64,000 nt of DNA from assembly GCA_965232815.1 (NCBI GenBank), contig OZ247427.1, forward strand, positions 2,201,602 through 2,265,601, written 5' to 3'. The notes below the pieces were generated by a model, which saw nothing but the letters and a program-made list of their open reading frames with translations, was not told the DNA's origin and did no database searches. The position numbers and the translations under genes were made by a program. Source of the DNA: Dehalococcoidia bacterium (GTDB lineage Bacteria > Chloroflexota > Dehalococcoidia > Lucifugimonadales > UBA3495). Below, one piece after another: positions 26,614-41,829 of the stretch; position 1 is the stretch's first letter; each line of letters opens with the position of its first letter.

Positions 26614-27717
26614 TTACTCTGCGGCGACCAGAGCCTCACATACACGGGCGCCATCGAAGATTTCGCTGAGGTTGGCGGTTTCCCTGGTGGTGTGGAAATC
26701 GCGGACGCCGATTCCGACGGGGAGTGCGGCAATGCCGTGTTCGAAAAATACGTTGGCGTCGGAGCCGCCTCCGGTGGTTTCGGTGGAGGGAGTCAGGCCA
26801 GAGGCATCGACGCAGCGGGAAATGAGCGTCAATGAGGGATGGTCCTGGGGGACACTGTAGGCGCGATACTGACTCCAGATGTTGAGATCGATGCTCGCCA
26901 ACGGGTACATGGATGCCACCTGGTCGAAGGCGCGTTCGAACTCGGCGGTGTAATTGTCAAGCTTGGCCTGGTTGCGGGAGCGGAGTTCGCCGTCCAGATA
27001 TGCGTGCTCGGGGATGATGTTGCGCTTGAGGCCGCCCTGGAGCAAGCCGATGTTGCTGGTGGTTTCCTCGTCGATGCGCCCCAGGGGCAAACGGGTGAGG
27101 ATGTTGGCGGCGACTAGCAGAGCCGACACACCGTTTTCCGGCTCCAGGCCGGCGTGGGCGGCGACACCGGTGATGTTGGCCTGCACGATGTTCTGGGCGG
27201 GGGCGCCGACGCAGATGCGGCTGACGGGTCCCTCGCCGTCGAATACGATGCCGGTTTCGGCGTGCACCAGGGAGAAGTCCAGGTTGCGAGCGCCATTGAG
27301 TCCGCCTTCCTCGGCGCGGGAGAATACAACCTGCACGGGACGGCGAGGAGTGCCAGCTTCAACCGCCGAGGTCAAACCTTCCATGACGATGGCGAGGCCT
27401 GCCTTGCAGTCGCCTCCCAGGATGGTAGTGCCGTCCGAGCGGAGGGTTTCGCCGTCGGGGTCCAGGATGGGTTTGATTCCGCGGCCGGGCTCGACGGTGT
27501 CCATGTGAGCGGACAGCATCACCGGGGGCTGGCTGGCGGAGCCATCACTTCCGGCGAGGGTGGCGACCAGGTTGCCATAATCGTCGTGCCGCACGACTGC
27601 GCCCAGGTTCGCCAGCAGGTTGGACAGGTGGGCGTCGATGGCGTCCTCCTCTCCGGTCGGGCTATCAATCCGGATGAGTTCCATGAGGGTCTGGGTCAGG
27701 CGCTGTCGGTCGGGCAT
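26614..27717 (-). CDS. M20/M42 family metallopeptidase (peptidase T-like)
   Basis: LMELIRIDSPTGEE, MLSAHMDTVEPG and FSRAEEGGLNGA motifs. Confidence 0.8.
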   Translation of the reverse strand: MPDRQRLTQTLMELIRIDSPTGEEDAIDAHLSNLLANLGAVVRHDDYGNLVATLAGSDGSASQPPVMLSAHMDTVEPGRGIKPILDPDGETLRSDGTTILGGDCKAGLAIVMEGLTSAVEAGTPRRPVQVVFSRAEEGGLNGARNLDFSLVHAETGIVFDGEGPVSRICVGAPAQNIVQANITGVAAHAGLEPENGVSALLVAANILTRLPLGRIDEETTSNIGLLQGGLKRNIIPEHAYLDGELRSRNQAKLDNYTAEFERAFDQVASMYPLASIDLNIWSQYRAYSVPQDHPSLTLISRCVDASGLTPSTETTGGGSDANVFFEHGIAALPVGIGVRDFHTTRETANLSEIFDGARVCEALVAAE

Positions 27718-27837
27718 GGGTCGCCTCCTGGCGGGATCGGTGTGACGATGGCATTATGCGCGATGGGCGGAAAATGCGCCAGTGAGCCGGCCGAGCGGCA
27801 ACTGTTCACACTTACCGAGCGATCTCCGCGTCCAACT

Positions 27838-27868
27838 CGTCATTCCGGACTTGATCCGGAATCCAGAA
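27838..27868 (+). repeat. hairpin repeat CGTCATTCCGGACTTGATCCGGAATCCAGAA (family 2)
   Basis: Stem ATTCCGGA/TCCGGAAT. An exact 31-nt reverse-complement copy lies at 55727-55757. Confidence 0.9.
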
Positions 27869-27880
27869 AATCCTGGCCCA

Positions 27881-27972
27881 CTCACGGTTGCCTGTCGTCA
27901 GGTCTCACGGTTGCCTGTCGTCAGGTCTCACGGTTGCCTGTCGTCAGGTCTCACGGTTGCCTGTCGCCAGGT
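27881..27972. repeat. tandem repeat, 23 bp x 4 (CTCACGGTTGCCTGTCGTCAGGT)
   Basis: Copies at 27881, 27904, 27927 and 27950. The last copy has one T>C change. There are no spacers. Confidence 0.95.
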
Positions 27973-27979
27973 CTTTCAG

Positions 27980-28259
27980 ATACCGACTTTCGCCGGTATG
28001 ACGGTTTGGGTTCTTGACGGTTTCCTCAAGTCTGAACAGTCACGCGCGACCGGCCGGCAAATGTCCTGCGCTCCACCGGCGTTCGACAGACACCGTTGCT
28101 CGACAGACAGCTTGCTCGCCGAACCGCGTCCCAGTCGCCGAACCACATCCTGACTTAATGAAATGGCCTCGGTGCGGGTAGGGGAGGACGATCTGCGGTA
28201 ACAGTTTAGAGTTGGCGGCAGCCGCGTCATGTAGGCGTCATTCCCGCGGAAGCGGGAAT
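27980..28259. repeat. further family-2 hairpins (ATACCGACTTTCGCCGGTAT at 27980-27999; ATTCCCGCGGAAGCGGGAAT at 28240-28259)
   Basis: Short perfect stems with GTCAT / CCAGAA-type flanks in both orientations. Together with 27838 they form a REP/BIME-like cluster. Confidence 0.7.
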
Positions 28260-28439
28260 CCAGAAGCCCGCGTATCACCGAGCGTGAGTAGTGCCAGCAA
28301 CTCATGGCTACCAGTCCTCGCCGGTATGATCGTTTTGGTTTGAGGCGACCATTTCAACTCTGAACTGTTGCGCAAGATGGTAACTGTTCACGTTTGAGGG
28401 GATGGAGGCGATCTCCAACGGACATTTTGTCCTGGACTG

Positions 28440-28970
28440 ACCTCCCGGAACAGGCCAATATCGCTGCGGATCCCATCATGCCTGAACAGATACACAAAAT
28501 AATCTGGAAGGAGAAATATGATGCTGGATGAACTCCTGAACGCAGCGGGTGCGTTACCTGACCGCGAGTGGGGCCACCGGTTCGGCTGCCCGCCTGCCGG
28601 TTCGGCTGCCCGCCTGAAGGCTGCCACCTCAAAGACAAGACTGGCGTCACCCGGTACTGCAAAGACCAGCGCTACGAGAAGCCCCAAGGCAAGTTGTTGC
28701 GGATAGTGGGCCTGCTGCCCCGCTGCTCAGACGAGTGGAAAACCGAGTACAAAAAGCGGACGACGGACGATGGAGCGGCACTTCAGCAGCGTGAAGCATA
28801 GTCGGCTGATGAACCAGCGCCGCAACTTCAACATCATTCAAAGGTTTTCTACTCATGCCATCAGCGTAACCGACGTCCCATCCTCACCCCAGGAACCATC
28901 CCCGCACGTTTGGCCCGTTGTCACACACCCTCTAAGCCAGCTACTGTGGCAAAATGCCGTCCATGAGTAA
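28440..28970 (+). pseudogene. C-terminal remnant of a DDE transposase, multiply frameshifted
   Basis: Pieces in three frames: ...GHRFGCPP(E)GCHLKDKTGVTRYCKDQRYEKPQGKLLRIVGLLPRCSDEWKTEYKKRTT, then (M)ERHFSSVKHSRLMNQRRNFNII. This resembles the conserved C-terminus (YxKRxxxERxFSxxK) of IS4/IS5-superfamily transposases. No N-terminal half is present. Confidence 0.5.
28577..28616. repeat. perfect 20-bp tandem duplication (CCGGTTCGGCTGCCCGCCTG x2)
   Basis: Copies at 28577-28596 and 28597-28616. Removing one copy fuses ORFs 28518.. and 28568.. into one frame. Confidence 0.95.
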
Positions 28971-31900
28971 GCCGAGCTTCAAGCAAATCACCGAGGACTA
29001 CTTCACGACGCTGCAGCAAGTCGGACGCTCTGGCGGCGCGACCGGTGAGCGTTCTCTGTATGGCCCCCTCGCCAACCTGCTGAACGCAGTAGGAAGCACG
29101 CTGAGACCAAAGGTCTTCTGCGTCCAGGAACTCGCCGACCAGGGCGCAGGTCATCCCGACTTTGGCCTGTACACGACGCGGCAGGTGCAAAAGGGCACTC
29201 CGAAATCGGGGCAAAAGCCGGAACGCGGGGTGATAGAAGTCAAATCAGTCGAGGACGACGCACGGCTAACTGCCCAGAGTGACCAGGTCGCCGGCTACTG
29301 GCTGGGTTACCGGCAGGTGCTGGTGACCAACGCGCGCGACTTCGTGCTGGTGGGCGAGGACGCCGCCGGCAACCCGGTCCGCCTGGAATCCCTGCGGCTG
29401 GCGGATTCGGCGGCGCAGTTCGACGCGAAGCTGGAACATCCGATGGCCTTCGCCAACGAGGTCGGCCCCGGGCTGGGCGAGTACCTGACCCGCGTGCTGT
29501 CCCACGCCGCGTCGCTGTCCGAGCCGAAGGACGTGGCGTGGCTGCTGGCGTCCTACGCCCGCGACGGGTTGGCAAGGGTTGAACATGCCGGCGATGCCAC
29601 GTCGCTGGCCACATTGCGGCAGGCGCTTGAAGATTCGCTGGGGGTGCAGTTCGACGGCGATCAGGGCGCGGCTGTCTTCCGGTCCACACTGGTGCAGACC
29701 CTCTTCTACGGCGTCTTCTCCGCCTGGGTGCTGTGGGCGCGGCAGACACCCAAACCGGACGGCCTCTTCAACTGGCACGACGCGGTCTGGCATCTGCGGG
29801 CGCCGGTGCTGCGCGCGTTGTTCCAGCAGCTATCCGACCCCGGGAAGTTGCAGCCGCTGGGACTGGTGGAGGTGCTGGACTGGACCGCCGCCGCGCTCAA
29901 CCGGGTGGAACGGGACGCCTTCTTTGCGAAGTTCAGCGAGGGCGAGGCCGTGCCCTACTTCTACGAACCCTTCCTGCAGGCATTCGACCCCGACCTGCGC
30001 AAGCAGCTTGGCGTCTGGTACACGCCCGCCGAGGTGGTGCGCTACATGGTGGCGCGAGTGGACAAGGCGCTGAAAGACGACCTTGGCATCCCCGACGGGC
30101 TGGCCGGCGAGAACGTGTACGTGCTTGATCCCTGCTGCGGCACCGGCGCGTACCTGGCCGAGGTTCTCCGCCGCATCGCCGCCAACCTGCGGGACAAGGG
30201 ACTCGGCGCGCTCACCGGCGCGCAGGTCAAACAGGCGGCCACCCAGCGCGTCTTCGGCTTCGAGATCATGCCGGCCCCCTTCGTGGTGGCGCACCTGCAG
30301 GTCGGCCTCGCCATGCAGGAATTGGACGCCCCGCTGTCCGACGACGGCGACGAACGGGCCGGCGTCTTCCTCACCAACGCGCTGACGGGCTGGGAGCCCA
30401 CGGTGCAGAAGCCCCTGCCCTTTCCCGAACTGGAGCAGGAACGAGAGCGCGCCGAACGGGTCAAGCAGGACACGCCGGTGCTGGTCATCCTGGGCAACCC
30501 GCCCTACAACGGCTTTGCCGGCATGGCCGTAGACGAGGAACGCGAACTGTCCCAGGCCTACCGCACCACCAGGCAGGTACGGCGTCCCGAAGGCCAGGGG
30601 CTGAATGACCTCTACGTGCGCTTCTTCCGCATGGCCGAGCGACGCATCGCGGAGAAGACCGGCCAGGGCGTGGTGTGCTTCATCTCCAACTACTCTTGGC
30701 TGGACGGTCTCTCCTTCACCGGCATGCGCGAACGCTACCTGGAGGCCTTCGACGCCATCCGCATCGACAATCTGCACGGCGACCGCATCATTTCAGAGTA
30801 CGCGCCTGACGGGCACACCAGCGAAACGGTCTTCGCATTGCAGGGGCAATCTCCCGGCATCAAGGTCGGCACGAGCATCACGCTGCTATCCAAGTCATCG
30901 GCGGCCGAATCAAAGGACAAACGCATCCTGTACCGTGACTTCCATCAGGCGCGGGCGGACGAAAGGCGTATGGCTTTGCTGCGAAGTCTTGAGGCCCCCG
31001 ACATTGATTCAGGCTATTCGCCAATGAACTGCAACCTTTCCCTGGGTTTGCCGTTCAAACCCATGGCGGTCAGCGACGGTTGGCAGGACTGGCCATCGCT
31101 GCCGGATTTGTTCCCGACGTCATTCCCGGGCGTGAAAACCAGCCGCGACGGTTTCTTGGTCGACGTTGACCTCGACCACCTGCAGCATCGAGTCGCTGAC
31201 TACTTCAACGCCGACCTGGGCCACGAAGAGATCACGCGCCGCTATCCCGGCGTGATGAAGCCCACCGCACGGTTCAACGCCCGCACCGTCCGCGACCAGT
31301 TGGTTAAGTGCGGCGGGCCGGCCGAGGACGGTTTCGTCCGCTATGCCTACCGTCCGTTCGACAACCGCTGGCTCTACTGGGACGCCGATGGCACGCTGCT
31401 GGATCGCCCCCGCGCCGATTACAAGCCGCACGTTTTCGAGGGGAACTTGTGGCTGGTGGCCCAGCATAAACCGCGTAGGGAATGGGGATCAGCGCAAGTC
31501 ATCACCCATATGGGTTGCATTGACCTGATGGACCGCAGCGCCACCTGCACCCCAATGTGGCTTTTGGACGACGGCCTCGACATCGACGGTACTGACTCGC
31601 AACACCGCCCCAACCTGTCGCTCGCCGCGCAACACTATCTGGGACGCCTGGGGTTGGGCGCTGAGGACCTGTTCCACCACGTCATCGCCACGCTGCACGA
31701 TCCCGAGTACCGCACCACCAACGCCGGCGCCCTGCGCATGGAGTGGCCACGCATCCCGCTGCCCGGCTGGCCCGACGGCGACGCTCACGGCGCGGCTGAT
31801 GCACTGGCGGAATCGGCGGCGCGAGGCCGGCAGTTGGCCGCCCTGCTGGACTCCGATACCCCCGTCGCCGGCGTGACCACCGGCGCGCTGCGTCCCGAAC

Positions 31901-32316
31901 TCGCCGCCATCGCCGTGCCCACGACGACGGACGGCGGCAACATGGCGGGCGAGGACTTCGTGGTGTCCGCCGGCTGGGGACACTTCGGCACGGGCGATGC
32001 CGTCATGCCTGGCCAGGGCAGAATCGTGGAACGCGACTACACGGACAAGGAACGAGCCGAGCTGACCGACGCCATCCCGACGCTGCACGACACCACCTAC
32101 GACGTGTATCTGAACGACCGTGCCTACTGGCGCAACGTCCCCGCCGCCGTCTGGAACTACCAGCTCGGGGGCTACCAGGTTCTCAAGAAGTGGCTGTCCT
32201 ACCGCGAGAGCAAGGTGCTGAGCCGCCCTTTGTTGCCGGAAGAAGTTCAACACTTTACGGACACGGCGCGACGGATCGCTGCGATCCTAAAGGTGACGAA
32301 ACAGCTTCAGAACTGA
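28954..32316 (+). CDS. single-chain restriction-modification-like enzyme: N-terminal PD-ExK nuclease-like domain + gamma-class N6-adenine DNA methyltransferase + Type-ISP-like C-terminal specificity domain
   Basis: HPD(69)F...GVIE(95)VK(97)S, WYTPAEVVRYMV, motif I VLDPCCGTGAYL, motif IV ILGNPPYNGF, and the C-terminal YRPFDNRWLYWD and VWNYQLGGYQVLKKWLSYRE. No helicase domain. Confidence 0.8.
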   Translation: MPSMSKPSFKQITEDYFTTLQQVGRSGGATGERSLYGPLANLLNAVGSTLRPKVFCVQELADQGAGHPDFGLYTTRQVQKGTPKSGQKPERGVIEVKSVEDDARLTAQSDQVAGYWLGYRQVLVTNARDFVLVGEDAAGNPVRLESLRLADSAAQFDAKLEHPMAFANEVGPGLGEYLTRVLSHAASLSEPKDVAWLLASYARDGLARVEHAGDATSLATLRQALEDSLGVQFDGDQGAAVFRSTLVQTLFYGVFSAWVLWARQTPKPDGLFNWHDAVWHLRAPVLRALFQQLSDPGKLQPLGLVEVLDWTAAALNRVERDAFFAKFSEGEAVPYFYEPFLQAFDPDLRKQLGVWYTPAEVVRYMVARVDKALKDDLGIPDGLAGENVYVLDPCCGTGAYLAEVLRRIAANLRDKGLGALTGAQVKQAATQRVFGFEIMPAPFVVAHLQVGLAMQELDAPLSDDGDERAGVFLTNALTGWEPTVQKPLPFPELEQERERAERVKQDTPVLVILGNPPYNGFAGMAVDEERELSQAYRTTRQVRRPEGQGLNDLYVRFFRMAERRIAEKTGQGVVCFISNYSWLDGLSFTGMRERYLEAFDAIRIDNLHGDRIISEYAPDGHTSETVFALQGQSPGIKVGTSITLLSKSSAAESKDKRILYRDFHQARADERRMALLRSLEAPDIDSGYSPMNCNLSLGLPFKPMAVSDGWQDWPSLPDLFPTSFPGVKTSRDGFLVDVDLDHLQHRVADYFNADLGHEEITRRYPGVMKPTARFNARTVRDQLVKCGGPAEDGFVRYAYRPFDNRWLYWDADGTLLDRPRADYKPHVFEGNLWLVAQHKPRREWGSAQVITHMGCIDLMDRSATCTPMWLLDDGLDIDGTDSQHRPNLSLAAQHYLGRLGLGAEDLFHHVIATLHDPEYRTTNAGALRMEWPRIPLPGWPDGDAHGAADALAESAARGRQLAALLDSDTPVAGVTTGALRPELAAIAVPTTTDGGNMAGEDFVVSAGWGHFGTGDAVMPGQGRIVERDYTDKERAELTDAIPTLHDTTYDVYLNDRAYWRNVPAAVWNYQLGGYQVLKKWLSYRESKVLSRPLLPEEVQHFTDTARRIAAILKVTKQLQN

Positions 32317-32329
32317 GGACGGCTCAAGA

Positions 32330-33003
32330 ATGATCTACGATGTACAGAGACTGGTGAAGAACTGTCTCACGGCGTTGCCCGTGGCCTGTGAAGGCGTTTC
32401 AATCGAGGCTTTGGAAAACCGCATACCGACAGACCTCCTCGGAGGGCGTCAGCCTACTTTTCGTTTAGAGGGTGTTCTCCGGCCGGCTGGTTGGTACCAG
32501 CGCCACCATGGACTACTGGGTGGTGGATTGGAGCTTCAGGCCAGAAGGTGCTACTGCACCGCGGAAGCCAGACAGGGGAAGCCAGACAGGCTTGTCAGGA
32601 TCGCAAGAGCATCCCTGCATCGAGTGCGTTGCCGGAAATCACCACAGACTACGAAACCAACCTGCAGGCGGCCTTCTGGAATTGGGTATGCAATCGGCAG
32701 GCGGGCGACAACCCACGAGGCGACTTCATTCGGGACACCAGGGATCTGCTGAGGGTAGGCAGAGATTCACCGGACGAAGTGCTCGAGAGCGCCTGCGCAA
32801 AGGCAATCGAAAAGTACCTCACCCTCCGCACCCGCTGGGCGGCTGAGGTTGGTGTCCATCCCTGGGACTGTACCCCGCTTGACGGCAAAGCGAAGATCAA
32901 GGGATCTGGATGGTACTACTGCTGCTCGCAGTGCGACAACTGCGACTGCGACGGCGTGAGCGGGTGCAATTGTGGCTGCAATAACTGCTCAACTGAAGAA
33001 TGA
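32330..33003 (+). pseudogene. Cys-rich-tailed small protein gene split by a 14-bp tandem duplication
   Basis: The ATG is 13 nt after the RM stop. The frame changes at the duplication, and the downstream frame runs to the stop at 33001-33003 and ends GSGWYYCCSQCDNCDCDGVSGCNCGCNNCSTEE. Removing one repeat copy gives one 219-aa ORF. Alternatively, only the distal part is a real gene. Confidence 0.45.
32563..32590. repeat. perfect 14-bp tandem duplication (GGAAGCCAGACAGG x2)
   Basis: Copies at 32563-32576 and 32577-32590, read directly from the sequence. Confidence 0.95.
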
Positions 33004-33057
33004 ATCAACCCACCTTGAAGAGAACGACGCGGACCACTCGGATACGCGCGAGGCTTC

Positions 33058-33809
33058 ATGCAATATCACCTGGACCTGTTTACTCCTGAGACATGGCAGG
33101 CCTTCACAGAAGCTGGAGCAGCATGCACAGGCGCGGAGCCCGACTACGACGCGTAGCCCGACTACGACGCGTAGCCAACGAACGAGTCAAACCGGGAGAC
33201 ATCCTCCTCTGCTACATGACGCGCGTATCCCGCTGGTGCGGTGTGCTGGAAGTCGAATCCGGACCTTTCGAAGACGATACTCCGAAGTTTGGCGCCACTG
33301 ACCCGTACCCAATCCGGTTCAACGTCAAACCAGTCGTCATCTTGAACACGGAGTCGGCGGTACCCATACGAGACCCACAGGTCTGGCCGGCTTTAACCAT
33401 CACCAACCGGCTCGAGCCTGGCAACCCTTACTGGACAGGATTCTTCAGGCAATCCCTGAATACCTTCGACGACGACGACGGGAGTTTCCTGGTGGATCTT
33501 CTCAAAAGACAGCAGTCAGGCCCGGAAGCGTACCCGCTCACCGACCAAGACCGGCGTCGGCTCAACCGGAGGCAGAGAGTCCGTACACTGACAGGAGAGG
33601 TTGATGTCAGCATCCCAGACGCTGAGGATGAAGAACTCTCACCTGAATCGAGAAACGCAGAATCGGACCAACGGACCAACTACCAGGAATCCATCCAATA
33701 CCAAGCGAAAGTAGCCCAAATCGGCGTCGAAATGGGATTCCATGTCTGGGTGCCGAGAAGCGACAAAGTGCGGGTCATGGAACTCCTCCAGCCGGCAGCA
33801 CATGAATAG
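33058..33809 (+). pseudogene. PUA/EVE-like domain protein with the beginning of a restriction-endonuclease-like domain; frameshifted and 3'-truncated
   Basis: MQYHLDLFTPETWQAFTEAGAACTG (frame of 33058, stop at 33154-33156) continues logically as ...RLRRVANERVKPGDILLCYMTRVSRWCGVLEV in the frame of ORF 33093. The ORF ends at ...IQYQAKVAQIGVEMGFHVWVPRSDK, before any D...ExK core. Confidence 0.5.
33137..33172. repeat. perfect 18-bp tandem duplication (AGCCCGACTACGACGCGT x2)
   Basis: Copies at 33137-33154 and 33155-33172. It encodes ARLRRV twice in the 33093 frame. Confidence 0.95.
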
Positions 33810-33831
33810 AGCCTACGGTGGCAATCTCGTT

Positions 33832-33888
33832 GGCCCGGCATCAACGCTCGTTGCGAAAAACCCGTTGTCGTCCACCCCCCGAAAAACC
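33832..33888 (+). repeat. left copy of a 57-nt imperfect direct repeat bounding the XRE-ImmA/TIR cassette
   Basis: GGCCCGGCATCAACGCTCGTTGCGAAAAACCCGTTGTCGTCCACCCCCCGAAAAACC aligned by hand against 38088-38144 gives 52 of 57 identical positions. Confidence 0.8.
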
Positions 33889-34404
33889 GGCTTTGCCTAA
33901 AAAGTCTGCGCGACGGGTCAGTTTTCGGACAAGTTTGAGACTTTTTGGGCAGAGGCAATCTTCGTGAACTCGACTGTGAGACCGAGACTGTAGATCGACC
34001 GTATCAGAACATACAAATTGTTCGCGAGAAGTTTGCAGAGCACCGCGTTGGCCTGACTTGACGGACGAGCCGGGAAACAGGGCAGGGATGTGTTGGTGAT
34101 GCCTGAGGTGGCGGAGGACCAAAAACGGTAAAGCCCCACCCCTGACATTGTTACCCTGCGTCGGGGAGACCTGCTCAACCGCGGGTCTCCCCGATTTGCT
34201 GTGAGAGCCACCGAGGTTCTCAAAATCGCGGATTCGTCGGGTTTCAGGAACCGTCTCACGTTGGGAGCGAGAATCGCTCAGTGCCATCTGCCCACGGAAG
34301 GGACTGGTTGGTCACACCCATACGGCCTATGGGCCCCGGTCGGTCTTCTCAATGGCAGATGGCGTACTCCATTGTATTGCGATCGTCCACAATCGTTTTG
34401 CCTG

Positions 34405-34433
34405 TTGACGAAGAGGTCGCCCCGGCATAGAAT
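34405..34433 (+). promoter_or_regulatory. sigma70-type promoter (TTGACG - 17 nt - TAGAAT)
   Basis: -35 at 34405-34410 and -10 at 34428-34433, 68 nt upstream of the ATG at 34501. Confidence 0.55.
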
Positions 34434-34460
34434 TGGGCATAATATTGTTGCTCTTGGTAA

Positions 34461-34480
34461 AGCCTTGAACTCTCAAGGCT
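34461..34480 (+). promoter_or_regulatory. perfect 8-4-8 palindrome AGCCTTGAactcTCAAGGCT between promoter and RBS (candidate operator)
   Basis: Read directly from the sequence. It lies in the 5' UTR of the operon that encodes an XRE-type HTH protein. Confidence 0.45.
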
Positions 34481-34500
34481 GACGCATAACGGAGTGGTTT

Positions 34501-35082
34501 ATGGTACCAGCCCGAATTGAAATCGAGATGGACGACGCCTGCGCGATTTTGGACCCGTTCCTGCCGCGGTGCGTGGACATCCTATTGGACTTTATGGATA
34601 AGGTTAACTCCCCACAAATGGCCTCCCTGCGCGGTTCCATGGGACGCCGCACGTTCTGCTCGTTGCTGGCCGATGATTTTTATTCCCAAATGGAGCAGGC
34701 ACCAGAGCACGGAGTCCGTTTCGAGCGTCGTCAAGACAAAGGCCAGCATTTCATTGTGTTTCAGGATCTTCTGGCCCTTCGAGTCAAACAGATTGGCAGG
34801 CAATATCTTTCATGGAATCTGCCGACCACCCATTCGCTGCGGTGGAACCTCGGGTTGCCGTCTCCAGAGATCGGCCCGCTTCCTACGCTGGAATTGGGGT
34901 ACCATCTGGACGCCCTGATGAATGGCTACCGCGGCATCCACCTCTTGCAGCGGTTCGAGAAAGTCGTGGATTGGCGTCAGCAGATTTACGGTGTCCAAAC
35001 CGATGCCTTCGACACCGAGCAACCGCGACTGCATGGCTTGGGCGGCAGCCGTAAGGTATACCGGTATAGACCGATCCGCTAA
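34501..35082 (+). CDS. hypothetical protein (193 aa), first gene of the cassette operon
   Basis: GGAG RBS about 9 nt upstream, and the stop is 11 nt before the next ATG. No motif recognised. Confidence 0.6.
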   Translation: MVPARIEIEMDDACAILDPFLPRCVDILLDFMDKVNSPQMASLRGSMGRRTFCSLLADDFYSQMEQAPEHGVRFERRQDKGQHFIVFQDLLALRVKQIGRQYLSWNLPTTHSLRWNLGLPSPEIGPLPTLELGYHLDALMNGYRGIHLLQRFEKVVDWRQQIYGVQTDAFDTEQPRLHGLGGSRKVYRYRPIR

Positions 35083-35093
35083 CACTGGATGCG

Positions 35094-36455
35094 ATGATGA
35101 CTTCGAAAAGCGTCAACCCTCAACTGATCCAATTGGCTCGACAATCGCGTGGCCTGACCCAAACCGCGCTCGCTGCAGGTATTGCGGTGGGCCAGTCCAT
35201 GATCGCCAGGTACGAATCTGGCGTGAAGGATGTGCCGCTCGACCACCTCAACAGGTTGTCCGAGGTTCTGGATTATCCGGTTCGTTTTTTCACTCGCCCG
35301 ATGGGCCGGGCCGGGTCTGGAAGTGAGATATTCCACCGCAAGCGAGCCCGGGTCCCCGCCAATGTCCTGGGGCGCAACTACGCAGACGCCACGATCCGGC
35401 GGATGGAGATCGACGCCCTGAGAGAATCTCTGGATGGGGTGTTCCCCTTCCCACCTTTTCCTTTCTATCCAATCGAGGAATTCGAGTACGACGCCGAGAA
35501 AATCGCCCGAACAGTCCGCGCTGCGTGGCGACTGCCGGACGGTCCGGTCTTCAACGTCACCAGGACGGTTGAGGAAAATGGCGGCATCGTTGTGGCTCAC
35601 AAGTTCGACTCACGTATCGACGGCTTCGGCTGCCGCACGCTGGGGCTTCCACCGGTCTTTCACCTCAACCGCGACCTCCCGCCAGACCGTTGGCGTTGGA
35701 CGCTGGCCCACGAGATCGGCCACATGGTGATGCACGTCGAAGCGGGCCAGCCCCATAATGAGGCGGAAGACCAAGCGCACCGGTTCGCGGCAGAGTTTCT
35801 TTGCCCTGCATACCAGATAGAGCCGCAATTACGGGGGCTGAACATGGGAAAGTTGGCCCCATTGAAAATGCAGTGGAAAGTATCCATGGCAGCGTTGGTC
35901 AAAAGAGCCAACGACGTGGGAACCATCGACGCCAAGCAGTACAAATCGCTGATGGTGCGGTTATCCCAACAAGGGTACCGAACCCGGGAGCCCTCCAATC
36001 TGGACCCACCAGAAGAACGCCCTACCTTACTGTTCGATCTGGCTCAGTATTTTGAGCAAAGCATGGAGTTCTCTCGCTCTGAAGTGCTGGCGCTGCTCAA
36101 CATCGGCGAGACCGATTTCTGGACCTACTACCGGGACCCGGACGACATTTTCGGCGACATTATGGGGCAACCGTCCCAAGGACAAGGAGACAACGACGTG
36201 TCCGAACAGGTAGCGCATTTGCGCCTGCACGCAGGAGCCCCACCGGTTCACCGCCAACTGGGATGCGCTCCTGAGGATGTGGGACGAGACCAAAAGTTGC
36301 TGGACGCTCTCCATCTTTTGCAGATGGAGAACATATTACCGGAGCGGTTGGTGGAAGCCAGCGAGGAACGGGTACGCTCCAGAATTGAGACCACCCATAA
36401 TAGGCAACGTTTCACCGACGACCTGGATAGGCTCTACGGTTCCGATTATCAGTGA
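35094..36455 (+). CDS. fused XRE-family HTH / ImmA-IrrE (M78, COG2856) zinc metallopeptidase with about 100-aa C-terminal extension
   Basis: The HTH QLIQLARQSRGLTQTALAAGIAVGQSMIARYESG, followed by the HExxH site LAHEIGHMVMH and EDQAHRFAAEFLCP. Confidence 0.85.
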   Translation: MMTSKSVNPQLIQLARQSRGLTQTALAAGIAVGQSMIARYESGVKDVPLDHLNRLSEVLDYPVRFFTRPMGRAGSGSEIFHRKRARVPANVLGRNYADATIRRMEIDALRESLDGVFPFPPFPFYPIEEFEYDAEKIARTVRAAWRLPDGPVFNVTRTVEENGGIVVAHKFDSRIDGFGCRTLGLPPVFHLNRDLPPDRWRWTLAHEIGHMVMHVEAGQPHNEAEDQAHRFAAEFLCPAYQIEPQLRGLNMGKLAPLKMQWKVSMAALVKRANDVGTIDAKQYKSLMVRLSQQGYRTREPSNLDPPEERPTLLFDLAQYFEQSMEFSRSEVLALLNIGETDFWTYYRDPDDIFGDIMGQPSQGQGDNDVSEQVAHLRLHAGAPPVHRQLGCAPEDVGRDQKLLDALHLLQMENILPERLVEASEERVRSRIETTHNRQRFTDDLDRLYGSDYQ

Positions 36456-36720
36456 TAAGGCAGACGTCACCCCGCCGTCATAATCGGTCCCAAATCGGTG
36501 GAGGCGGGCCTTCAACCGACTGGGACCAAGCCTTGGTTACAGCGAGAACGGAAACCATGTTGAGTGATTGAAGGCGGAACTATCTGCCCGCACTGCATAC
36601 GCAATTTTCAATTGCCATCCTCGCCGAGGACCCTCTTGGAGTTATGGATGAGTCGCCACCGTGAGGCGCGGGATCCGTCGGTGACCGACCGTAGGGCTGC
36701 TGTTTCATGAGAGAGGTGTT

Positions 36721-37638
36721 ATGTACAACCTTTTGGTGGTGAACTACGACGACGCCCCCAACTACTGGGAGAACAATGCCACGCGATGGGTACGGGCATT
36801 GCCACAGGGATGGGGACTCAATCGCATGCCGGGACGAGAGCGATGGGACGAGCTACGGAAACGTCCCTGTCTCTTTACATACGAACTCAAACCGCCCGCG
36901 GTTGTAGGGCATATCGGCGAAATCGTAGATGTGGACTTTCCAGATATCAAGTACGAATTGGAAGACAGTATTGAAATCAGTCGCGACTGTCTCCGCGACC
37001 TTGGCTTCAAAACCGGTGATGAACATAGAACGCAATGGATCGAGAAAGAGGATGTTGACCTGTACAAAGTCGTAACCAAATGGCGACGGGAGGAATGTAA
37101 CGTCCGCCCCTTGCCCACAGAAGCAGAAAAGAGGCGGGTATGGGGGAACGATTACCTGTGGAAGCCTCGGTTGTTTTTGAGCCACCGTGCAGCATATCGC
37201 AGCAAAGTTTCGCAAGTGAAAGTGCTGCTGGAGCATGCAGGAGGCGCCTGCTTCGTCGCTCACGATGACATTGAGCCCGGCTCCATCTGGCATGACGAGA
37301 TCATCCACGCCTTGGATACCATGCAGGTATTCATCGGATTCATAACCGACGATTTCCATACAGGAGGTTGGCCCGACCAAGAAGTCGGGTATGCACACCA
37401 GAGGGGAATCCCGAAAGTCTTCCTGAAGTTAGGACAATGCGATCCTAGAGGCGCGGTGGCTATTGAACAGGCATTGTCTGCGAACTGGAATAACGCAGTT
37501 GCTAAACTGATCCTACATTTGCGCGAGAGCGGACTCATGCCCAAACAAGGGCCAGCATGGCCTTTGCCGAAAGACGAGGATCGCCTGCCGTGGGAACCCT
37601 ATATTGACGAGCACGGGTCCTTCCACCCTCCTGCATAG
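36721..37638 (+). CDS. TIR-like domain protein with unknown about 150-aa N-terminal domain
   Basis: The C-terminal half RLFLSHRAAYRSKVSQVKVLLEHAGGACFVAHDDIEPGSIWHDEIIHALDTMQVFIGFITDDFHTGGWPDQEVGYA follows the bacterial TIR pattern (FLSH...K..., W..eI..al, S.W..qE.g.a). RBS GAGAGAGG. Confidence 0.65.
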   Translation: MYNLLVVNYDDAPNYWENNATRWVRALPQGWGLNRMPGRERWDELRKRPCLFTYELKPPAVVGHIGEIVDVDFPDIKYELEDSIEISRDCLRDLGFKTGDEHRTQWIEKEDVDLYKVVTKWRREECNVRPLPTEAEKRRVWGNDYLWKPRLFLSHRAAYRSKVSQVKVLLEHAGGACFVAHDDIEPGSIWHDEIIHALDTMQVFIGFITDDFHTGGWPDQEVGYAHQRGIPKVFLKLGQCDPRGAVAIEQALSANWNNAVAKLILHLRESGLMPKQGPAWPLPKDEDRLPWEPYIDEHGSFHPPA

Positions 37639-37899
37639 AACGACGACTACTGCCTGATGGTTACGCCTAGACCAACATCCGAAGTGCGGCGTGCGGATGG
37701 CCGGCGACCAACCTGCGGCGATCTAATCGGCCCGCTCGCAACTCGACGGCCGATGATGTTGTGGGTCATCGTCACCCTGTCCCCAAATCGGGTGAACTGT
37801 CCGAAAATTGCTATTACGGGACAAAGCCTGTGAGCGCACGATTTCTGATATGAAAGACCTGCGGTACTTTTTGGGCAGAACGAGACTTTATAGGCAAGG

Positions 37900-38296
37900 C
37901 CTGAAAAACCCCCTTCGAGGCCCTCAAAACGCCGGTTGAGGCCCCGAAAAACGCCGGTTGAGATCGCCCAAATCCGCGATTTCGTCGTCTGTCCCGGCGC
38001 TGGACATCGCGCTCATCCGGGCGACTGGCGGCAGGTGGTCCGATCCTCTTCACTCCAATCCTCCTCATCTTTGACCGGGTACCGGTGGGCCCGGCGTCAA
38101 CGCTCGTTGCCCAAAATCCGTCGTCGTCCACCCCCCGAAAAACCCCCGTCGAGGCCCTGAAAACGCCGGTCGAGACCCTGAAAAACGCCGGTTGAGATCG
38201 CCCAAGTCCGCGATTATTGTCGTCTGTCCCGGCGCTGGACATCGCGCTCACCCGGGCGAGTTGCGGCCGCTGGTCCGGTTTTCCTCATCTCCAATG
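37900..38296. repeat. two tandem copies (period about 234 bp) of a unit that opens with three 21-22-nt iteron-like subrepeats (CCCYSAAAA(A)CGCCGGTYGAGR)
   Basis: Subrepeats at 37900-37920, 37921-37941, 37942-37963 and at 38133-38154, 38155-38175, 38176-38197. Each set is followed by the conserved TCGCCCAARTCCGCGATT...GTCTGTCCCGGCGCTGGACATCGCGCTCA. Confidence 0.85.
38088..38144 (+). repeat. right copy of the 57-nt direct repeat
   Basis: GGCCCGGCGTCAACGCTCGTTGCCCAAAATCCGTCGTCGTCCACCCCCCGAAAAACC; see 33832-33888. Confidence 0.8.
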
Positions 38297-38383
38297 AAAC
38301 GGGAATCCGGTCAGTCCCAATCGCAGCATGCCTCACCCCTGCGCCTGCCGGTGGCGGCGCCGAAACGAATCATCCCCGCGCGC

Positions 38384-38411
38384 GTAGGGGCAAATAATCA
38401 TTCGCCCTTAC
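38384..38411. repeat. GTAGGGGC...GCCCTTAC hairpin (family 1, degenerate copy)
   Basis: gtaggggcaaataatcattcgcccttac, upstream of moaD. Confidence 0.6.
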
Positions 38412-38533
38412 ACCGTCGCCAATACAATGTCCGGCGTGCCAAGCGCCGGAAACGCCAAATACCTACCCCTGACAGCCCCGAGGTTTGCCGTCGCATTGAC
38501 ACCGTGGTACCGCCAGCACATAATCTAGCCGCC

Positions 38534-38785
38534 ATGCGTTTTGATGTTCGATTGTTTGCCCTGTATCGTGAGCGGGCCGGGGCGTCGTTGGTGACGGTGG
38601 ATTTGCCCGACGGCGCATCGGTTGGAGACCTCACGTCGGCAGTGCGGGTTGACTATCCGCGGCTGGCGCCGCCTGAGGTTCGGATCGTGGTGGCAGTGAA
38701 CGCAGAATACGCGGATGATGACCAGTTGCTTCAACCGGGCGACGAGGTTTGCCTGATCCCTCCCGTAAGCGGAGGACGCGGTTAG
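38534..38785 (+). CDS. moaD: MoaD/ThiS family sulfur carrier (molybdopterin synthase small subunit)
   Basis: The internal ATG at 38534 gives an 83-aa protein (MRFDVRLFALYRERAG...CLIPPVSGGRG) with the near-C-terminal GG. The upstream part of ORF 38192 is a translated repeat. Confidence 0.8.
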   Translation: MRFDVRLFALYRERAGASLVTVDLPDGASVGDLTSAVRVDYPRLAPPEVRIVVAVNAEYADDDQLLQPGDEVCLIPPVSGGRG

Positions 38786-38791
38786 CGGAGG

Positions 38792-39280
38792 TTGCTAACG
38801 ATGATTATCCTTACGGACGAACCGCTGGACCCGGCGGCGGTCACCGACTCGGTGCGACGGGACGGCAACGGAGCGGTGGTCACATTTCTGGGGACAACCC
38901 GGGACAATTTCGGGGGGAAGACCGTCACGCGGCTGGAATACGAAGCGTATGACGCGATGGCGATCAAGAAAATGCACGAGGTGAGGGACAGCCTGCGCGC
39001 GGACTATGGCATCGAGGATATCGCCATCGCGCACCGGACGGGCCGGGTGGACGTTGGGCACATCAGCCTGGTGGTGGCCGTGGCGTCGCCGCACCGGGTG
39101 AAGGCGTTTGAGGCGTGCCATGAGGCGGTCAACCGCATCAAGACGATCGTGCCGATATGGAAGAAGGAGTGGTTCGCCGACGGTTCACGCTGGGTGGCTT
39201 GCGAGGACCACGAATTCGCCGACGAGGCGGAGCACCGACATGCCCACGCCGAACGGCACGCGGTGACTACCGGAGACTGA
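38792..39280 (+). CDS. moaE: molybdopterin synthase catalytic subunit
   Basis: GAVVTFLGTTRD, IAIAHRTGRVDVG, VVAVASPHR and PIWKKE motifs. Confidence 0.85.
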   Translation: MLTMIILTDEPLDPAAVTDSVRRDGNGAVVTFLGTTRDNFGGKTVTRLEYEAYDAMAIKKMHEVRDSLRADYGIEDIAIAHRTGRVDVGHISLVVAVASPHRVKAFEACHEAVNRIKTIVPIWKKEWFADGSRWVACEDHEFADEAEHRHAHAERHAVTTGD

Positions 39281-39334
39281 CCGCGGCCAAATATGTGGAA
39301 CCGTGCCCTTGAATCCGCCGGTTCGAGGGCTTTT

Positions 39335-41799: not shown

Positions 41800-41829
41800 T
41801 GTCGAGCTGGGGGAGGCGGTCGCATGAGG

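What the first reader, a model, noticed from the sequence alone, without database searches (positions are those of the whole stretch)
28440..38296. Accessory defence-like island wedged between an M20 peptidase gene and moaDE
Seen: about 10 kb with no housekeeping genes. It is entered through a REP/tandem-repeat patch (27838-28332) and a transposase remnant, and exited through iteron-like arrays (37900-38296). It contains an intact 1120-aa RM-like fusion enzyme, two adjacent decayed genes, and a cassette bounded by 57-nt direct repeats with an unknown ORF, an XRE-ImmA fusion and a TIR-like protein. Codon and base composition look AT-richer by eye than the flanks. Established: RM enzymes, PUA/EVE-nuclease fusions, TIR effectors and XRE/ImmA regulators all recur in bacterial defence islands. 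Inference: this is a layered immunity locus in which an older module (RM + Cys-rich + PUA-nuclease) is partly decaying and a newer cassette has landed in it. The particular gene combination does not match any named system I know.
Basis: partly seen in the sequence, partly recalled or inferred. Interest (0 to 1): 0.75.

Follow-up and report, generated by a model that had tools for sequence, protein, structure and literature searches.

The report
Defence hotspot with transposon-borne RosmerTA-like cargo
The 10.8 kb between the peptidase gene and moaD is a real strain-variable anti-phage island in a Dehalococcoidia genome, and its newest layer is a 4-kb transposon that has lost its transposase and carries a RosmerTA-type toxin-antitoxin pair with an undescribed toxin candidate plus a lone TIR protein.

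Summary
The rimM-moaE-moaD-[gap]-M20-polyprenyl order is conserved in related Dehalococcoidia. The gap is about 100-300 bp in nine relatives, holds a Septu (PtuA/PtuB) pair in the one 2.1-2.2-kb relative examined (four more have a gap of that size), and is 10.75 kb here (27741-38492).

Contents:
- An intact Type IIG restriction-modification enzyme.
- A Cys-rich ORF frameshifted at a 14-nt tandem duplication.
- An EVE/NmeDI_C restriction-enzyme gene that has lost its nuclease domain.
- A 4,013-bp insert (33889-37901).

A strain 96-97% identical (L090) lacks exactly this insert. The insert has 19-bp terminal inverted repeats (17/19), subterminal repeats, an 8-9-bp target duplication and a remnant of an IS5-family SWIM-DDE transposase. 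It is therefore a transposase-less transposon.

Its cargo is a conserved two-gene module plus a solo TIR protein. The module is a 193-aa protein followed by an HTH-M78 RmrA (PADLOC 1.9e-57). The 193-aa family has about 310 clusters, no Pfam, PADLOC or PDB match, and a confident model (pLDDT 92) without a significant fold match. A full-length transposon of the same end type (L132) carries a remote homologue of the same pair.

The island is not uniformly AT-rich: the IIG gene is 65% GC.

The parts
26614..27717 (-). M20 peptidase gene, left conserved flank of the slot
   Evidence: Pfam Peptidase_M20 and M20_dimer. Relatives L001-L025 share 76-87% aa identity and the same neighbours.
27840..28263 (+). 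Repeat patch: REP-like hairpins (27840-27866 and 28238-28263), 23-nt x4.1 tandem repeat (27881-27974), 17-nt x2.2 repeat (28083-28118)
   Evidence: The hairpin motif has a third copy at 55729 and many copies in L021.
28518..28860 (+). Possible C-terminal remnant of an IS1182/IS5-type transposase, frameshifted at a 20-nt tandem duplication (28577-28616)
   Evidence: The reconstructed peptide gives DDE_Tnp_1_6 at E 0.007, below the cut-off. Support is weak.
28954..32316 (+). Intact Type IIG restriction-modification fusion enzyme (1120 aa): N-terminal nuclease region with D69...E95-x-K97, gamma-class N6-adenine MTase (DPCCGTG, NPPY), Type ISP-like C-terminal specificity domain
   Evidence: PADLOC REase_MTase_IIG 2.8e-96 and 1.2e-77. 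Pfam Type_ISP_C 1.5e-43, N6_Mtase, Eco57I, MmeI_Mtase. Motifs were read from the translation. GC is 65.4%.
32330..33003 (+). Gene A: Cys-rich ORF of unknown family, split into two frames at a 14-nt tandem duplication (32563-32590)
   Evidence: Removing one copy of the duplication gives one 219-aa ORF. No Pfam, PADLOC or NCBIfam hit. Its 3' end is also present in L090.
33058..33809 (+). Gene B': decayed EVE + NmeDI_C restriction endonuclease gene. The C-terminal nuclease domain (about residues 240-375 of the family) is missing, and there is a 17-nt insertion with an 18-nt tandem repeat (33132-33185) near the 5' end.
   Evidence: 159 homologues, mostly 375 aa, with PF27126 (NmeDI_C) and some with PF01878 (EVE). 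Full-length relative P0126 matches PADLOC REase_II at 1.8e-14 over residues 205-333. The truncation point is shared with L090, while the 17-nt insertion is specific to the window.
33829..33888 (+). It holds the left target-site copy CGAAAAACC at 33880-33888.
33889..37901 (+). 4,013-bp transposase-less transposon (IS5-family type, IS903-like ends), inserted relative to strain L090
   Evidence: The L090 empty site reads CCCCGAAAAACCCCCGTCG. The ends GGCTTTGCCTAAAAAGTCT (33889-33907) and GGCCTTGCCTATAAAGTCT (37883-37901, -) match 17/19, with none expected by chance. The same end architecture occurs in 16 of 57 metagenome hits.
33938..33956 (-). Subterminal copy of the end repeat at the left end. 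A corresponding copy lies at the right end, 37865-37877 (-).
33966..34061 (-). Remnant of the C-terminus of a SWIM + DDE_Tnp_1 (IS5-family) transposase
   Evidence: 50% identity over 32 aa to residues 369-400 of the L132 transposase (tblastn E 6.5e-5; BLASTP 8e-8). The L132 protein gives DDE_Tnp_1 at 1.2e-20, SWIM, and NCBIfam IS5 family at 1.8e-37.
34405..34433 (+). Promoter-like site of the two-gene module (TTGACG-17-TAGAAT). Conserved CATAA motifs follow it.
   Evidence: Homology to other copies of the module starts at 34423.
34501..35082 (+). 193-aa protein, candidate toxin (RmrT position) of an uncharacterised family
   Evidence: 12 close homologues and 310 cluster representatives by profile search. 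None of 80 members hits Pfam, PADLOC or PDB sequences. The AF2 model has pLDDT 92 and pTM 0.88, with no significant fold match. It is always followed directly by an RmrA-like gene.
35094..36455 (+). RmrA-type antitoxin/regulator: XRE HTH + M78 (ImmA/IrrE) zinc peptidase with HEIGH motif, plus a C-terminal extension of about 110 aa
   Evidence: PADLOC gives 14 RmrA models, the best at 1.9e-57 (residues 7-342). Pfam gives HTH_3 at 2.5e-10 and Peptidase_M78 at 5.2e-13. NCBIfam gives spr1629 family repressor/antitoxin at 3.8e-23, below its cut-off.
36721..37638 (+). 305-aa protein with a conserved unknown N-terminal domain and a TIR domain (residues about 150-240). The candidate catalytic Glu221 is invariant.
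   Evidence: Pfam TIR_2 at 1.5e-8. 111 homologues, most about 291 aa. W217, D219, Q220 and E221 are invariant. The profile aligns the WpDQE motif to the WCWDE motif of Cat1 TIR. It is a solo gene with different neighbours in five other genomes.
37902..38295 (+). Rest of repeat unit 1 and all of unit 2 (units of about 234 nt with 22-nt sub-repeats). The right target-site copy TGAAAAACC is at 37902-37910.
   Evidence: The same two units are contiguous in L090 1102-1543. Similar sub-repeats occur in L081.
38496..39280 (+). moaD promoter-like site (38496-38524), moaD (38534-38785) and moaE (38792-39280): right conserved flank
   Evidence: Pfam ThiS and MoaE. Promoter scan 11/12. Homology to relatives resumes at 38493-38496.

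Best explanation
The divergent intergenic slot between the M20 peptidase gene and moaD is a hotspot where this Dehalococcoidia lineage gains and loses anti-phage genes.

This genome shows at least three layers:
1. An intact Type IIG restriction-modification enzyme. By family knowledge it cuts unmethylated foreign DNA and methylates its own.
2. An older pair of genes that is now dead. One is a Cys-rich ORF. The other is an EVE-NmeDI_C nuclease, which in its intact form is a single-gene EVE-REase, probably a modification-dependent restriction enzyme.
3. The most recent layer, a 4,013-bp transposon of an IS5-family type. It has IS903-like ends, subterminal repeats and an 8-9-bp target duplication. 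It inserted into a repeat unit upstream of moaD and has lost all but the last ~32 codons of its transposase, so it can now move only if a related transposase acts on its ends in trans.

The transposon carries two independent units. The first is a RosmerTA-type operon, with the 193-aa protein as the toxin candidate and the HTH-M78 protein RmrA as its antitoxin and autorepressor. In the inferred mechanism RmrA keeps the toxin silent until infection perturbs it, and the released toxin then aborts the infection. The same module could also stabilise the transposon as an addiction cassette. The second unit is a stand-alone TIR protein with an intact catalytic glutamate. It is inferred to be an NAD+-consuming effector whose unknown N-terminal domain senses the trigger.

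Shown here: the synteny, the insertion boundaries, the domain assignments and the gene pairing. Inferred: toxicity, the triggers and the defence phenotype.
For: Hotspot:
- The rimM-moaE-moaD-gap-M20 order is conserved. The gap is about 100-300 bp in L002, L005, L006, L010, L011, L014, L016, L018 and L046, and 2.1-2.2 kb in L024, L025, L001, L003 and L012.
- In L024 the gap holds PtuA (5.6e-44) and PtuB (1.7e-28).
- None of the window's island proteins occurs in any of the 80 related loci.

Insertion:
- L090 is 96-97% identical on both sides and lacks 33889-37901 exactly.
- The 19-bp inverted ends match 17/19 and are flanked by GAAAAACC on both sides.
- A transposase remnant lies just inside the left end.
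- Elements with the same ends in L092 (both ends, 9-bp duplication CAATGTTTT) and L132 carry the homologous SWIM-DDE_Tnp_1 transposase.
- The IS903B ends GGCTTTGTTGAATAAATC and its 9-bp duplication (PMC10569121) resemble these ends (13/18 by my count).

Two-gene module:
- The 193-aa gene is followed 11-15 nt later by the 453-aa RmrA gene in L081, L082, L084 and L085. In L086 the two ORFs overlap, and the RmrA gene is split into two ORFs there.
- DNA homology to these copies is limited to 34423-36455.
- The ORF upstream of the L132 RmrA-like gene (36% identity to the window's RmrA) is a remote member of the 193-aa family (hhalign 95.5%, E 1.4e-8; hmmsearch 6.3e-11).

Literature: RosmerTA is a Zn-peptidase antitoxin plus a toxin of unknown function, and the rmrA deletion mutant could not be obtained by transformation, possibly because of toxicity (10.1101/2022.05.11.491447). 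The ImmA/Rosmer antitoxin node swaps partners widely, and 58% of its pairs are toxin-first (PMC10440598).

TIR protein. In four of five other contexts, known defence genes lie within 5 kb (CBASS twice, a Septu-like pair, Cas9).
Against: - No experiment bears on this. Toxicity of the 193-aa protein, neutralisation by RmrA and any anti-phage effect are all inferred.
- The 193-aa family matches no PADLOC model, so none of its RmrT models, and no known toxin fold. It could be a non-toxic partner.
- HTH-M78 proteins also serve as ImmA/ImmR-like regulators of mobile elements and as CapP-type regulators. capP also hits, at 2.6e-12.
- The transposase remnant is short (32 aa).
- Only 16 of 57 metagenome hits to the end sequence show the subterminal repeats. 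The rest may be chance matches.
- The target duplication is exact over 8 bp, but the 9th position differs.
- Whether the IIG enzyme is active cannot be judged from sequence.
Confidence: 0.72

Rival explanations
1. The cassette is an integrative element or prophage remnant that entered by site-specific recombination, with the 57-60-nt direct repeats as attL and attR.
For: A 60-nt direct repeat at 90% identity flanks roughly the right region (33829-33888 and 38085-38144).
Against: L090 lacks the cassette yet has both repeat copies, as parts of two tandem 234-nt units. The indel against L090 ends at 33888/33889 and 37901/37902, not at the second repeat. No integrase or phage gene lies inside. The borders carry inverted repeats and a target duplication.
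Confidence: 0.04
2. The HTH-M78 protein is a regulator of the mobile element, of the ImmR/ImmA or CapH/CapP type, rather than an antitoxin. In this reading it would control the element or the downstream TIR gene, and the 193-aa protein would be an accessory factor rather than a toxin.
For: M78 + HTH proteins are also repressor/anti-repressor modules. capP matches at 2.6e-12 and NCBIfam names it 'repressor/antitoxin'. The module sits inside a transposon here and in L132. The TIR gene lies 266 nt downstream on the same strand.
Against: 14 RmrA profiles match at 1e-23 to 1e-57 over almost the full profile length, far better than capP. The 193-aa/RmrA pairing is conserved in five other loci that lack the TIR gene and the transposon ends. 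TIR homologues occur without an adjacent RmrA-type (HTH + M78) partner gene; one locus, L088, has a CBASS-cluster M78 gene two genes away on the other strand.
Confidence: 0.15
3. The region is ancestral and relatives have lost it. In this reading it is a decaying native region rather than an acquired island.
For: L090 shares gene A, the truncated gene B and the repeat units, so part of the content predates the split of these two strains.
Against: All 80 related loci lack every island protein. One examined relative carries an unrelated system (Septu) at the same slot, four more have a 2.1-2.2-kb gap whose content was not examined, and nine have about 100-300 bp. Composition is a mosaic, from 65% GC in the IIG gene to 54-58% in the transposon genes. 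Transposase remnants and a target duplication are present.
Confidence: 0.05
4. The TIR protein is a host-interaction (eukaryote-like) factor of a symbiont rather than an anti-phage effector.
For: The relatives are uncultured Dehalococcoidia/Chloroflexota MAGs, some probably host-associated (record titles; the host association is from my own knowledge only). One homologue sits beside a giant cadherin/fn3 protein (L089).
Against: Four of five other contexts have CBASS, Cas9 or a Septu-like pair within 5 kb. Here it rides with a RosmerTA-type pair. The catalytic Glu is conserved. The closest family hits are anti-phage TIR proteins: ThcB4, retron-TIR and Cat1.
Confidence: 0.07

Closest known systems
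RosmerTA (RmrT/RmrA) toxin-antitoxin defence system (Millman et al. 2022; Ernits et al. 2023)
   Same: It is a two-gene operon. The second gene is an XRE-HTH + M78 zinc peptidase that matches 14 RmrA profiles (best 1.9e-57). The order is toxin-first, as in 58% of ImmA/Rosmer pairs, and it sits in a defence context.
   Different: The first gene belongs to a family that matches no PADLOC, Pfam or PDB entry. RmrA carries an extra C-terminal region of about 110 aa. Neither toxicity nor defence has been tested. The organism is a Dehalococcoidia bacterium.
IS903 / IS5-family insertion sequences, and transposase-less derivatives with passenger genes (mobile insertion cassettes, 'transporter' IS)
   Same: The ends start GGCTTTG and share 13/18 positions with IS903B. 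The target duplication is 8-9 bp (IS903B: 9 bp, PMC10569121). The related full elements encode a DDE_Tnp_1 transposase that scores on the NCBIfam IS5 model (129 bits against a cut-off of 140).
   Different: The transposase has an N-terminal SWIM zinc finger and is about 400 aa. The ends carry one to three extra subterminal repeats and the two ends differ in layout. The elements carry cargo genes. The window copy has lost the transposase.
MmeI-like Type IIG / Type ISP-related restriction-modification enzymes
   Same: It is a single polypeptide with an N-terminal PD-ExK-type motif (D69, E95, K97), a gamma-class N6-adenine MTase (NPPY) and a Type_ISP_C specificity domain. PADLOC gives REase_MTase_IIG at 2.8e-96.
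   Different: It has no helicase/translocase domain, so it is not Type ISP proper. The specificity and the cut site are unknown.
EVE/PUA-nuclease fusions (modification-dependent Type IV restriction enzymes) and the NmeDI_C family
   Same: Gene B belongs to a 375-aa family with an EVE-like N-terminus and an NmeDI_C nuclease domain.
   Different: The window copy lacks the nuclease domain and is frameshifted, so it is a pseudogene.
Septu (PtuA/PtuB)
   Same: It occupies the same chromosomal slot in L024. Four more relatives (L025, L001, L003, L012) have a gap of the same size that was not examined.
   Different: It is absent from the window. It is relevant only as evidence that the slot is a defence hotspot.

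Membership tests
RosmerTA | Antitoxin RmrA: XRE-type HTH fused to an M78 (ImmA/IrrE) zinc peptidase | tested here: met
   PADLOC RmrA models, best 1.9e-57 over residues 7-342. Pfam HTH_3 and Peptidase_M78. The HEIGH motif is present.
RosmerTA | Adjacent, co-oriented partner gene that is conserved with RmrA as a two-gene unit | tested here: met
   The 193-aa gene ends 11 nt before rmrA. The same pair is found in L081, L082, L084, L085 and L086 with unrelated flanks, and a remote version in L132.
RosmerTA | Partner matches a described RmrT toxin family | tested here: not met
   None of 80 family members hits any PADLOC model at E <= 0.01 apart from one stray MTase hit. There are no Pfam hits. 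RmrT families are diverse by definition, so this lowers the claim of membership in a known subtype, not the claim that it works like RosmerTA.
RosmerTA | Partner is toxic, RmrA neutralises it, and the operon protects against phage | not testable with these tools
   This needs expression and plaque assays.
IS5 family (IS903-like) transposon | Terminal inverted repeats at the borders of the inserted segment | tested here: met
   19 bp matching 17/19, located exactly at the indel borders against L090.
IS5 family (IS903-like) transposon | Target-site duplication of fixed length | tested here: met
   GAAAAACC on both sides (9 bp with one mismatch). The single copy is seen in the L090 empty site. 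The L092 element has a 9-bp duplication, CAATGTTTT.
IS5 family (IS903-like) transposon | DDE_Tnp_1 transposase of the IS5 family | tested here: inconclusive
   The window holds only a 32-aa C-terminal remnant. The full-length relatives in L132, L092 and L106 give DDE_Tnp_1 at 1.2e-20 and NCBIfam transpos_IS5_2 at 1.8e-37, which is 129 bits against a cut-off of 140.
Type IIG restriction-modification | Nuclease, methyltransferase and specificity domains in one polypeptide | tested here: met
   PADLOC REase_MTase_IIG covers residues 20-937. Type_ISP_C covers 718-1091. The D69/E95/K97, DPCCGTG and NPPY motifs were read directly.
Type IIG restriction-modification | Cleavage and methylation activity | not testable with these tools
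   This needs enzyme assays or methylome data.
TIR-domain NADase effectors | TIR fold with the conserved catalytic glutamate | tested here: met
   TIR_2 at 1.5e-8. E221 is invariant in 27 sequences and aligns with the Glu of the WCWDE motif of Cat1 TIR.
Thoeris / CBASS / retron TIR systems | Conserved partner gene (ThsA-type effector, cyclase or reverse transcriptase) | tested here: not met
   Five homologues have five different neighbourhoods, and no partner gene is shared. NCBIfam ThcB4 and retron-TIR hits are far below their cut-offs.
Defence island at a chromosomal hotspot | Conserved flanks with variable, defence-rich content between strains | tested here: met
   The slot is empty in nine relatives, holds Septu in L024 (four more relatives have a gap of that size), and holds this island here and partly in L090.

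The most novel reading that the evidence does not exclude
A family of IS903-like transposons has a SWIM-DDE transposase and asymmetric ends with several repeats. It habitually carries a RosmerTA-type pair whose toxin belongs to an undescribed protein family of about 200 residues (about 310 clusters) with a new fold. The pair would act both as mobile anti-phage immunity and as an addiction module that keeps the transposon in place. The window holds a transposase-less, defence-loaded derivative of that family.
Probability: 0.4. Interest if true: 0.6.

Novelty: new variant of a known kind. Interest (0 to 1): 0.48.

Why it matters
1. It gives a clean natural before-and-after pair (window against L090) for how a defence island grows. 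A small transposon dropped two immune units into a non-coding repeat beside an older, decaying layer.
2. It points to an uncharacterised partner family for RmrA-type antitoxins. The family is large, has a confident predicted structure and resembles no known fold. It is directly testable as a new abortive-infection toxin.
3. It links RosmerTA-type modules to a particular IS5-like transposon family in two independent elements. This suggests a route by which such modules spread in uncultured Chloroflexota.

None of these points overturns current views. Defence genes on mobile elements and partner swapping in RosmerTA are both established.

Tried and rejected
- An exact-sequence look-up of the window's RmrA found nothing on record.
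- Rfam found no RNA family in 27000-39000 at E <= 0.1.
- The ORFs at 28354-28801 and 33841-34482 have no Pfam or NCBIfam hit as they stand.
- The first structure model of the 193-aa protein, from 12 close sequences, was poor (pLDDT 55). It was replaced by a model from 80 sequences.
- Fold searches of that model against PDB and BFVD gave nothing significant. The best results were E 0.07 and 0.13, with TM-scores of 0.33 or less in the 50 best matches listed from each library. Several weak hits were PD-(D/E)xK nucleases, but I do not treat that as evidence.
- A PDB sequence search with the family profile found nothing.
- The exact 19-nt end pattern is absent from the 90 loci held at that point, so other copies of the RmrA pair and of the TIR gene do not sit in this transposon.
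- The IS256-type element of L090 has unrelated ends, so it is not the mobiliser.
- I considered treating the TIR gene as the toxin partner of RmrA and rejected it, because its homologues occur alone.
- A literature search for defence cargo on mobile insertion cassettes found nothing specific.

Full report
**What is at the coordinates**

The window is about 61% GC. By its closest relatives it comes from an uncultured Dehalococcoidia (Chloroflexota) genome. Between the M20 peptidase gene (26614-27717, minus strand) and moaD (38534-38785) there are no housekeeping genes.

The main ORFs are as follows.

| ORF | Size | Assignment |
|---|---|---|
| 28954-32316 | 1120 aa | Type IIG REase-MTase: PADLOC 2.8e-96; Pfam Type_ISP_C 1.5e-43, N6_Mtase, Eco57I |
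| 32330-33003 | two overlapping frames | no family hit |
| 33093-33809 | 238 aa | only a weak EVE-like hit |
| 34501-35082 | 193 aa | no hit |
| 35094-36455 | 453 aa | HTH_3 + Peptidase_M78; matches 14 PADLOC RmrA models, best 1.9e-57 |
| 36721-37638 | 305 aa | TIR_2 domain, 1.5e-8 |

- A 23-nt x4.1 tandem array at 27881-27974.
- REP-like hairpins at 27840 and 28238, with a third copy at 55729.
- A 60-nt direct repeat, 33829-33888 and 38085-38144, at 90% identity.
- A duplicated segment of about 153 nt, 37900-38052 and 38134-38287, with 22-nt sub-repeats.

**Is it an accessory island?**

Yes. I fetched 80 loci around relatives of the M20 peptidase and mapped the window's proteins onto them. 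The order rimM-moaE-moaD-gap-M20-polyprenyl synthase is conserved.

- The gap between the divergent moaD and M20 start codons is about 100-300 bp in L002, L005, L006, L010, L011, L014, L016, L018 and L046.
- It is 2.1-2.2 kb in L024, L025, L001, L003 and L012.
- It is 10.8 kb in the window.

None of the island proteins occurs in any of these loci. In L024 the gap holds a 432-aa ATPase and a 221-aa HNH protein. These match PtuA (5.6e-44) and PtuB (1.7e-28), which together make a Septu system. DNA homology to relatives stops at 27740 and resumes at 38493-38496, just before a promoter-like site for moaD. The slot is therefore a hotspot with alternative defence contents.

Composition is a mosaic rather than uniformly AT-rich. 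The island as a whole is 59.7% GC, against 60.3-62.4% outside. The IIG gene is 65.4% GC (GC3 83%). The 33889-37901 segment is 55.9%, and the TIR gene is 53.5%.

**The decayed genes**

Gene A (32330-33003) is split between two frames exactly at a 14-nt tandem duplication (32563-32590). Deleting one copy gives a single 219-aa ORF with a Cys-rich tail. No family matches it.

Gene B belongs to a family of 159 retrieved homologues, most of them 375 aa. They carry PF27126 (NmeDI_C) and in some cases PF01878 (EVE). A full-length relative matches a PADLOC Type II REase model over residues 205-333. In other genomes the gene stands alone among varied neighbours.

The window copy stops at about residue 238, so it lacks the nuclease domain. 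Near its 5' end it also carries a 17-nt insertion that forms an 18-nt tandem repeat and shifts the frame. The real start is the ATG at 33058 (MQYHLDLF...).

**The key comparison: strain L090**

The closest homologue of gene B (97% identity) lies on contig_9985 of ENA sample ERZ19489075, fetched as L090. L090 is 96-97% identical to the window on both sides:
- L090 1-1161 matches window 32711-33888. This stretch holds the gene A 3' end, gene B with the same truncation, and the 60-nt repeat.
- L090 1151-1543 matches window 37900-38292.
- L090 2929-11325 matches window 38274-46668, which holds moaD, moaE, rimM and the genes beyond.

L090 has an IS256-type element (Transposase_mut, 5e-137) that is not in the window. 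It lacks window 33889-37901.

Both copies of the 60-nt repeat are present in L090, as the heads of two tandem units of about 234 nt. These repeats therefore predate the cassette and are not its borders.

At the junctions:
- L090 reads ...CCCCGAAAAACCCCCGTCG...
- The window's left junction reads ...CCCCGAAAAACC|GGCTTTGCCTAAAAAGTCT...
- The window's right junction reads ...AGACTTTATAGGCAAGGCC|TGAAAAACCCCCTTCG...

The insert is thus 4,013 bp. It has 19-bp terminal inverted repeats matching 17/19, with no chance match in shuffles. It is flanked by a duplicated GAAAAACC, or 9 bp with one mismatch. Extra copies of the end motif lie just inside both ends: 33938-33956 (inverted) and 37865-37877.

**What kind of element is it?**

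Scanning metagenome contigs for the 19-nt end gave 57 hits. In 16 of them at least one further TGCCCAAAAAGTC-like copy lies within 100 nt inside the end, against 4% of random 100-nt stretches of the same contigs. Both layouts seen at the window's left and right ends recur.

- In L132 the end is followed by a 263-aa ORF, a 357-aa HTH-M78 protein (PADLOC RmrA 1.2e-41) and a 406-aa protein. The last has a SWIM zinc finger and DDE_Tnp_1 (1.2e-20), and its best NCBIfam model is IS5 family (1.8e-37; 129 bits against a cut-off of 140).
- L092 has both ends, a 9-bp target duplication (CAATGTTTT) and a frameshifted copy of the same transposase.
- L106 has a 57% identical transposase.
- Just inside the window's left end, on the minus strand (33966-34061), 32 codons match the C-terminus of this transposase at 50% identity (tblastn E 6.5e-5, BLASTP 8e-8). 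L109 shows a similar remnant at the same kind of end.

The published IS903B ends (GGCTTTGTTGAATAAATC...) and its 9-bp duplication (PMC10569121) resemble these. By my own count the ends share 13 of 18 positions.

I conclude that the insert is a derivative of an IS5-family, IS903-like transposon. It has lost its transposase and keeps its cargo. It is comparable to a mobile insertion cassette.

**The cargo: a RosmerTA-type pair**

The 193-aa ORF is a real gene, with 12 close homologues at 57-100% identity. In L081, L082, L084, L085 and L086 it is directly followed by the HTH-M78 gene, while the surrounding genes differ. These neighbours include Type I and MmeI-type restriction genes, HamA and transposases.

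DNA similarity to the window covers only 34423-36455, from a promoter-like site to the rmrA stop codon. The antitoxin-like gene is better conserved (78-91% aa) than the 193-aa gene (66-71%).

A profile search over 1.84 billion cluster representatives found 310 relatives, mostly 190-210 aa. None of 80 aligned members hits PADLOC, Pfam or PDB sequences. With that alignment AlphaFold gives a confident model (pLDDT 92, pTM 0.88). It has four N-terminal helices and a beta-sheet core. There is no significant match in PDB or BFVD.

The 263-aa ORF upstream of the L132 RmrA-like gene is a remote member of the same family (hhalign 95.5%, E 1.4e-8; hmmsearch 6.3e-11). The two RmrA proteins share only 36% identity. 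The pairing is therefore old and recurrent, and it occurs in two independent transposons with this end type.

Published work defines RosmerTA as a Zn-peptidase antitoxin with a toxin of unknown function. The rmrA deletion mutant could not be transformed, possibly because of toxicity (10.1101/2022.05.11.491447). The ImmA/Rosmer antitoxin node swaps partners widely, and 58% of its pairs are toxin-first (PMC10440598). The window's pair fits that description. Its toxin family is not among those modelled in PADLOC 2.0.

**The cargo: a TIR protein**

The 305-aa protein has 111 retrieved homologues, most about 291 aa, which share both the N-terminal domain and the TIR domain. W217, D219, Q220 and E221 are invariant. 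A profile search of PDB sequences aligns this WpDQE motif with WCWDE of the Cat1 TIR domain (E 0.0014). This supports E221 as the catalytic glutamate.

In five other genomes the gene has five different neighbourhoods:
- an integrase fragment and IS copies (L087);
- CBASS (L088 and L089);
- a Septu-like pair 2.6 kb away (L153);
- Cas9-Cas1-Cas2 (L154).

I read it as a single-gene unit, not as part of the RmrA operon.

**How it most likely works**

Shown here:
- The slot is a hotspot.
- The IIG gene is intact.
- Genes A and B are dead.
- The 4-kb element is a recent transposon insertion that can no longer move by itself.
- The 193-aa/RmrA pair is a conserved unit.

Inferred from family knowledge:
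- The IIG enzyme restricts unmethylated DNA.
- RmrA represses its operon and holds the 193-aa toxin in check until infection releases it.
- The TIR protein depletes NAD+ or makes a signal when its N-terminal domain is triggered.
- The TA pair may also stabilise the transposon.

**Novelty and verdict**

The parts are members or variants of known kinds. The points of interest are the clean insertion event, the uncharacterised toxin-candidate family and its repeated link to one transposon family. I rate this a new variant of a known kind, with interest about 0.5.

Noticed in passing
window 28577-28616, 32563-32590, 33132-33185: All three decayed ORFs of the island carry a short tandem duplication (20, 14 and 18 nt) at or near the frameshift. 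Removing one 14-nt copy restores gene A. This may be a shared slippage-type mutational signature, or it may need read-level checking.
   Followed up: partly
window 27840-27866, 28238-28263, 55729-55755 (-); L021, many copies: A REP-like hairpin element, TCATTCC-(loop)-GGAATCCAG, is dispersed in this genome and in related Dehalococcoidia.
   Followed up: partly
window 37900-38295; L090 1102-1543; L081 13619-14045: The 234-nt units with 22-nt 'iteron-like' sub-repeats are tandem in both strains. Similar sub-repeats recur in another genome 3.7 kb from its copy of the 193-aa/RmrA pair. Their nature is unexplained.
   Followed up: partly
L092 1354-1540 and 5290-5320; L106 1500-1560; L120 1020-1130: Two transposon ends abut head to tail. 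In L092 they are separated by the same 9 nt (CAATGTTTT) that flanks the far end. This suggests tandem copies or a circle-junction-like arrangement.
   Followed up: partly
L092 4273-4845 (-): By eye, the cargo of this related transposon includes a 190-aa ORF that looks like a dCTP deaminase. It has no PADLOC hit.
   Followed up: no
L090 1544-2928: The sister strain has an IS256-type element (Transposase_mut, 5e-137) inserted just upstream of moaD. The window has none there.
   Followed up: yes
window 46058-46846: A low-GC stretch (0.505) holds a 262-aa ORF. The equivalent gene in L090 is marked DUF4268. It may be another small accessory gene.
   Followed up: no
window 41000-64000: GC skew rises to +0.15 to +0.34 in most 1-kb bins from about 41 kb onward, after being near zero before. 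The cause was not examined.
   Followed up: no
window 34424-34500; L081, L084, L085 upstream regions: Three conserved CATAA-containing motifs lie around the -10 region and the ribosome-binding site of the 193-aa/RmrA operon. They are a candidate operator for the HTH domain.
   Followed up: no
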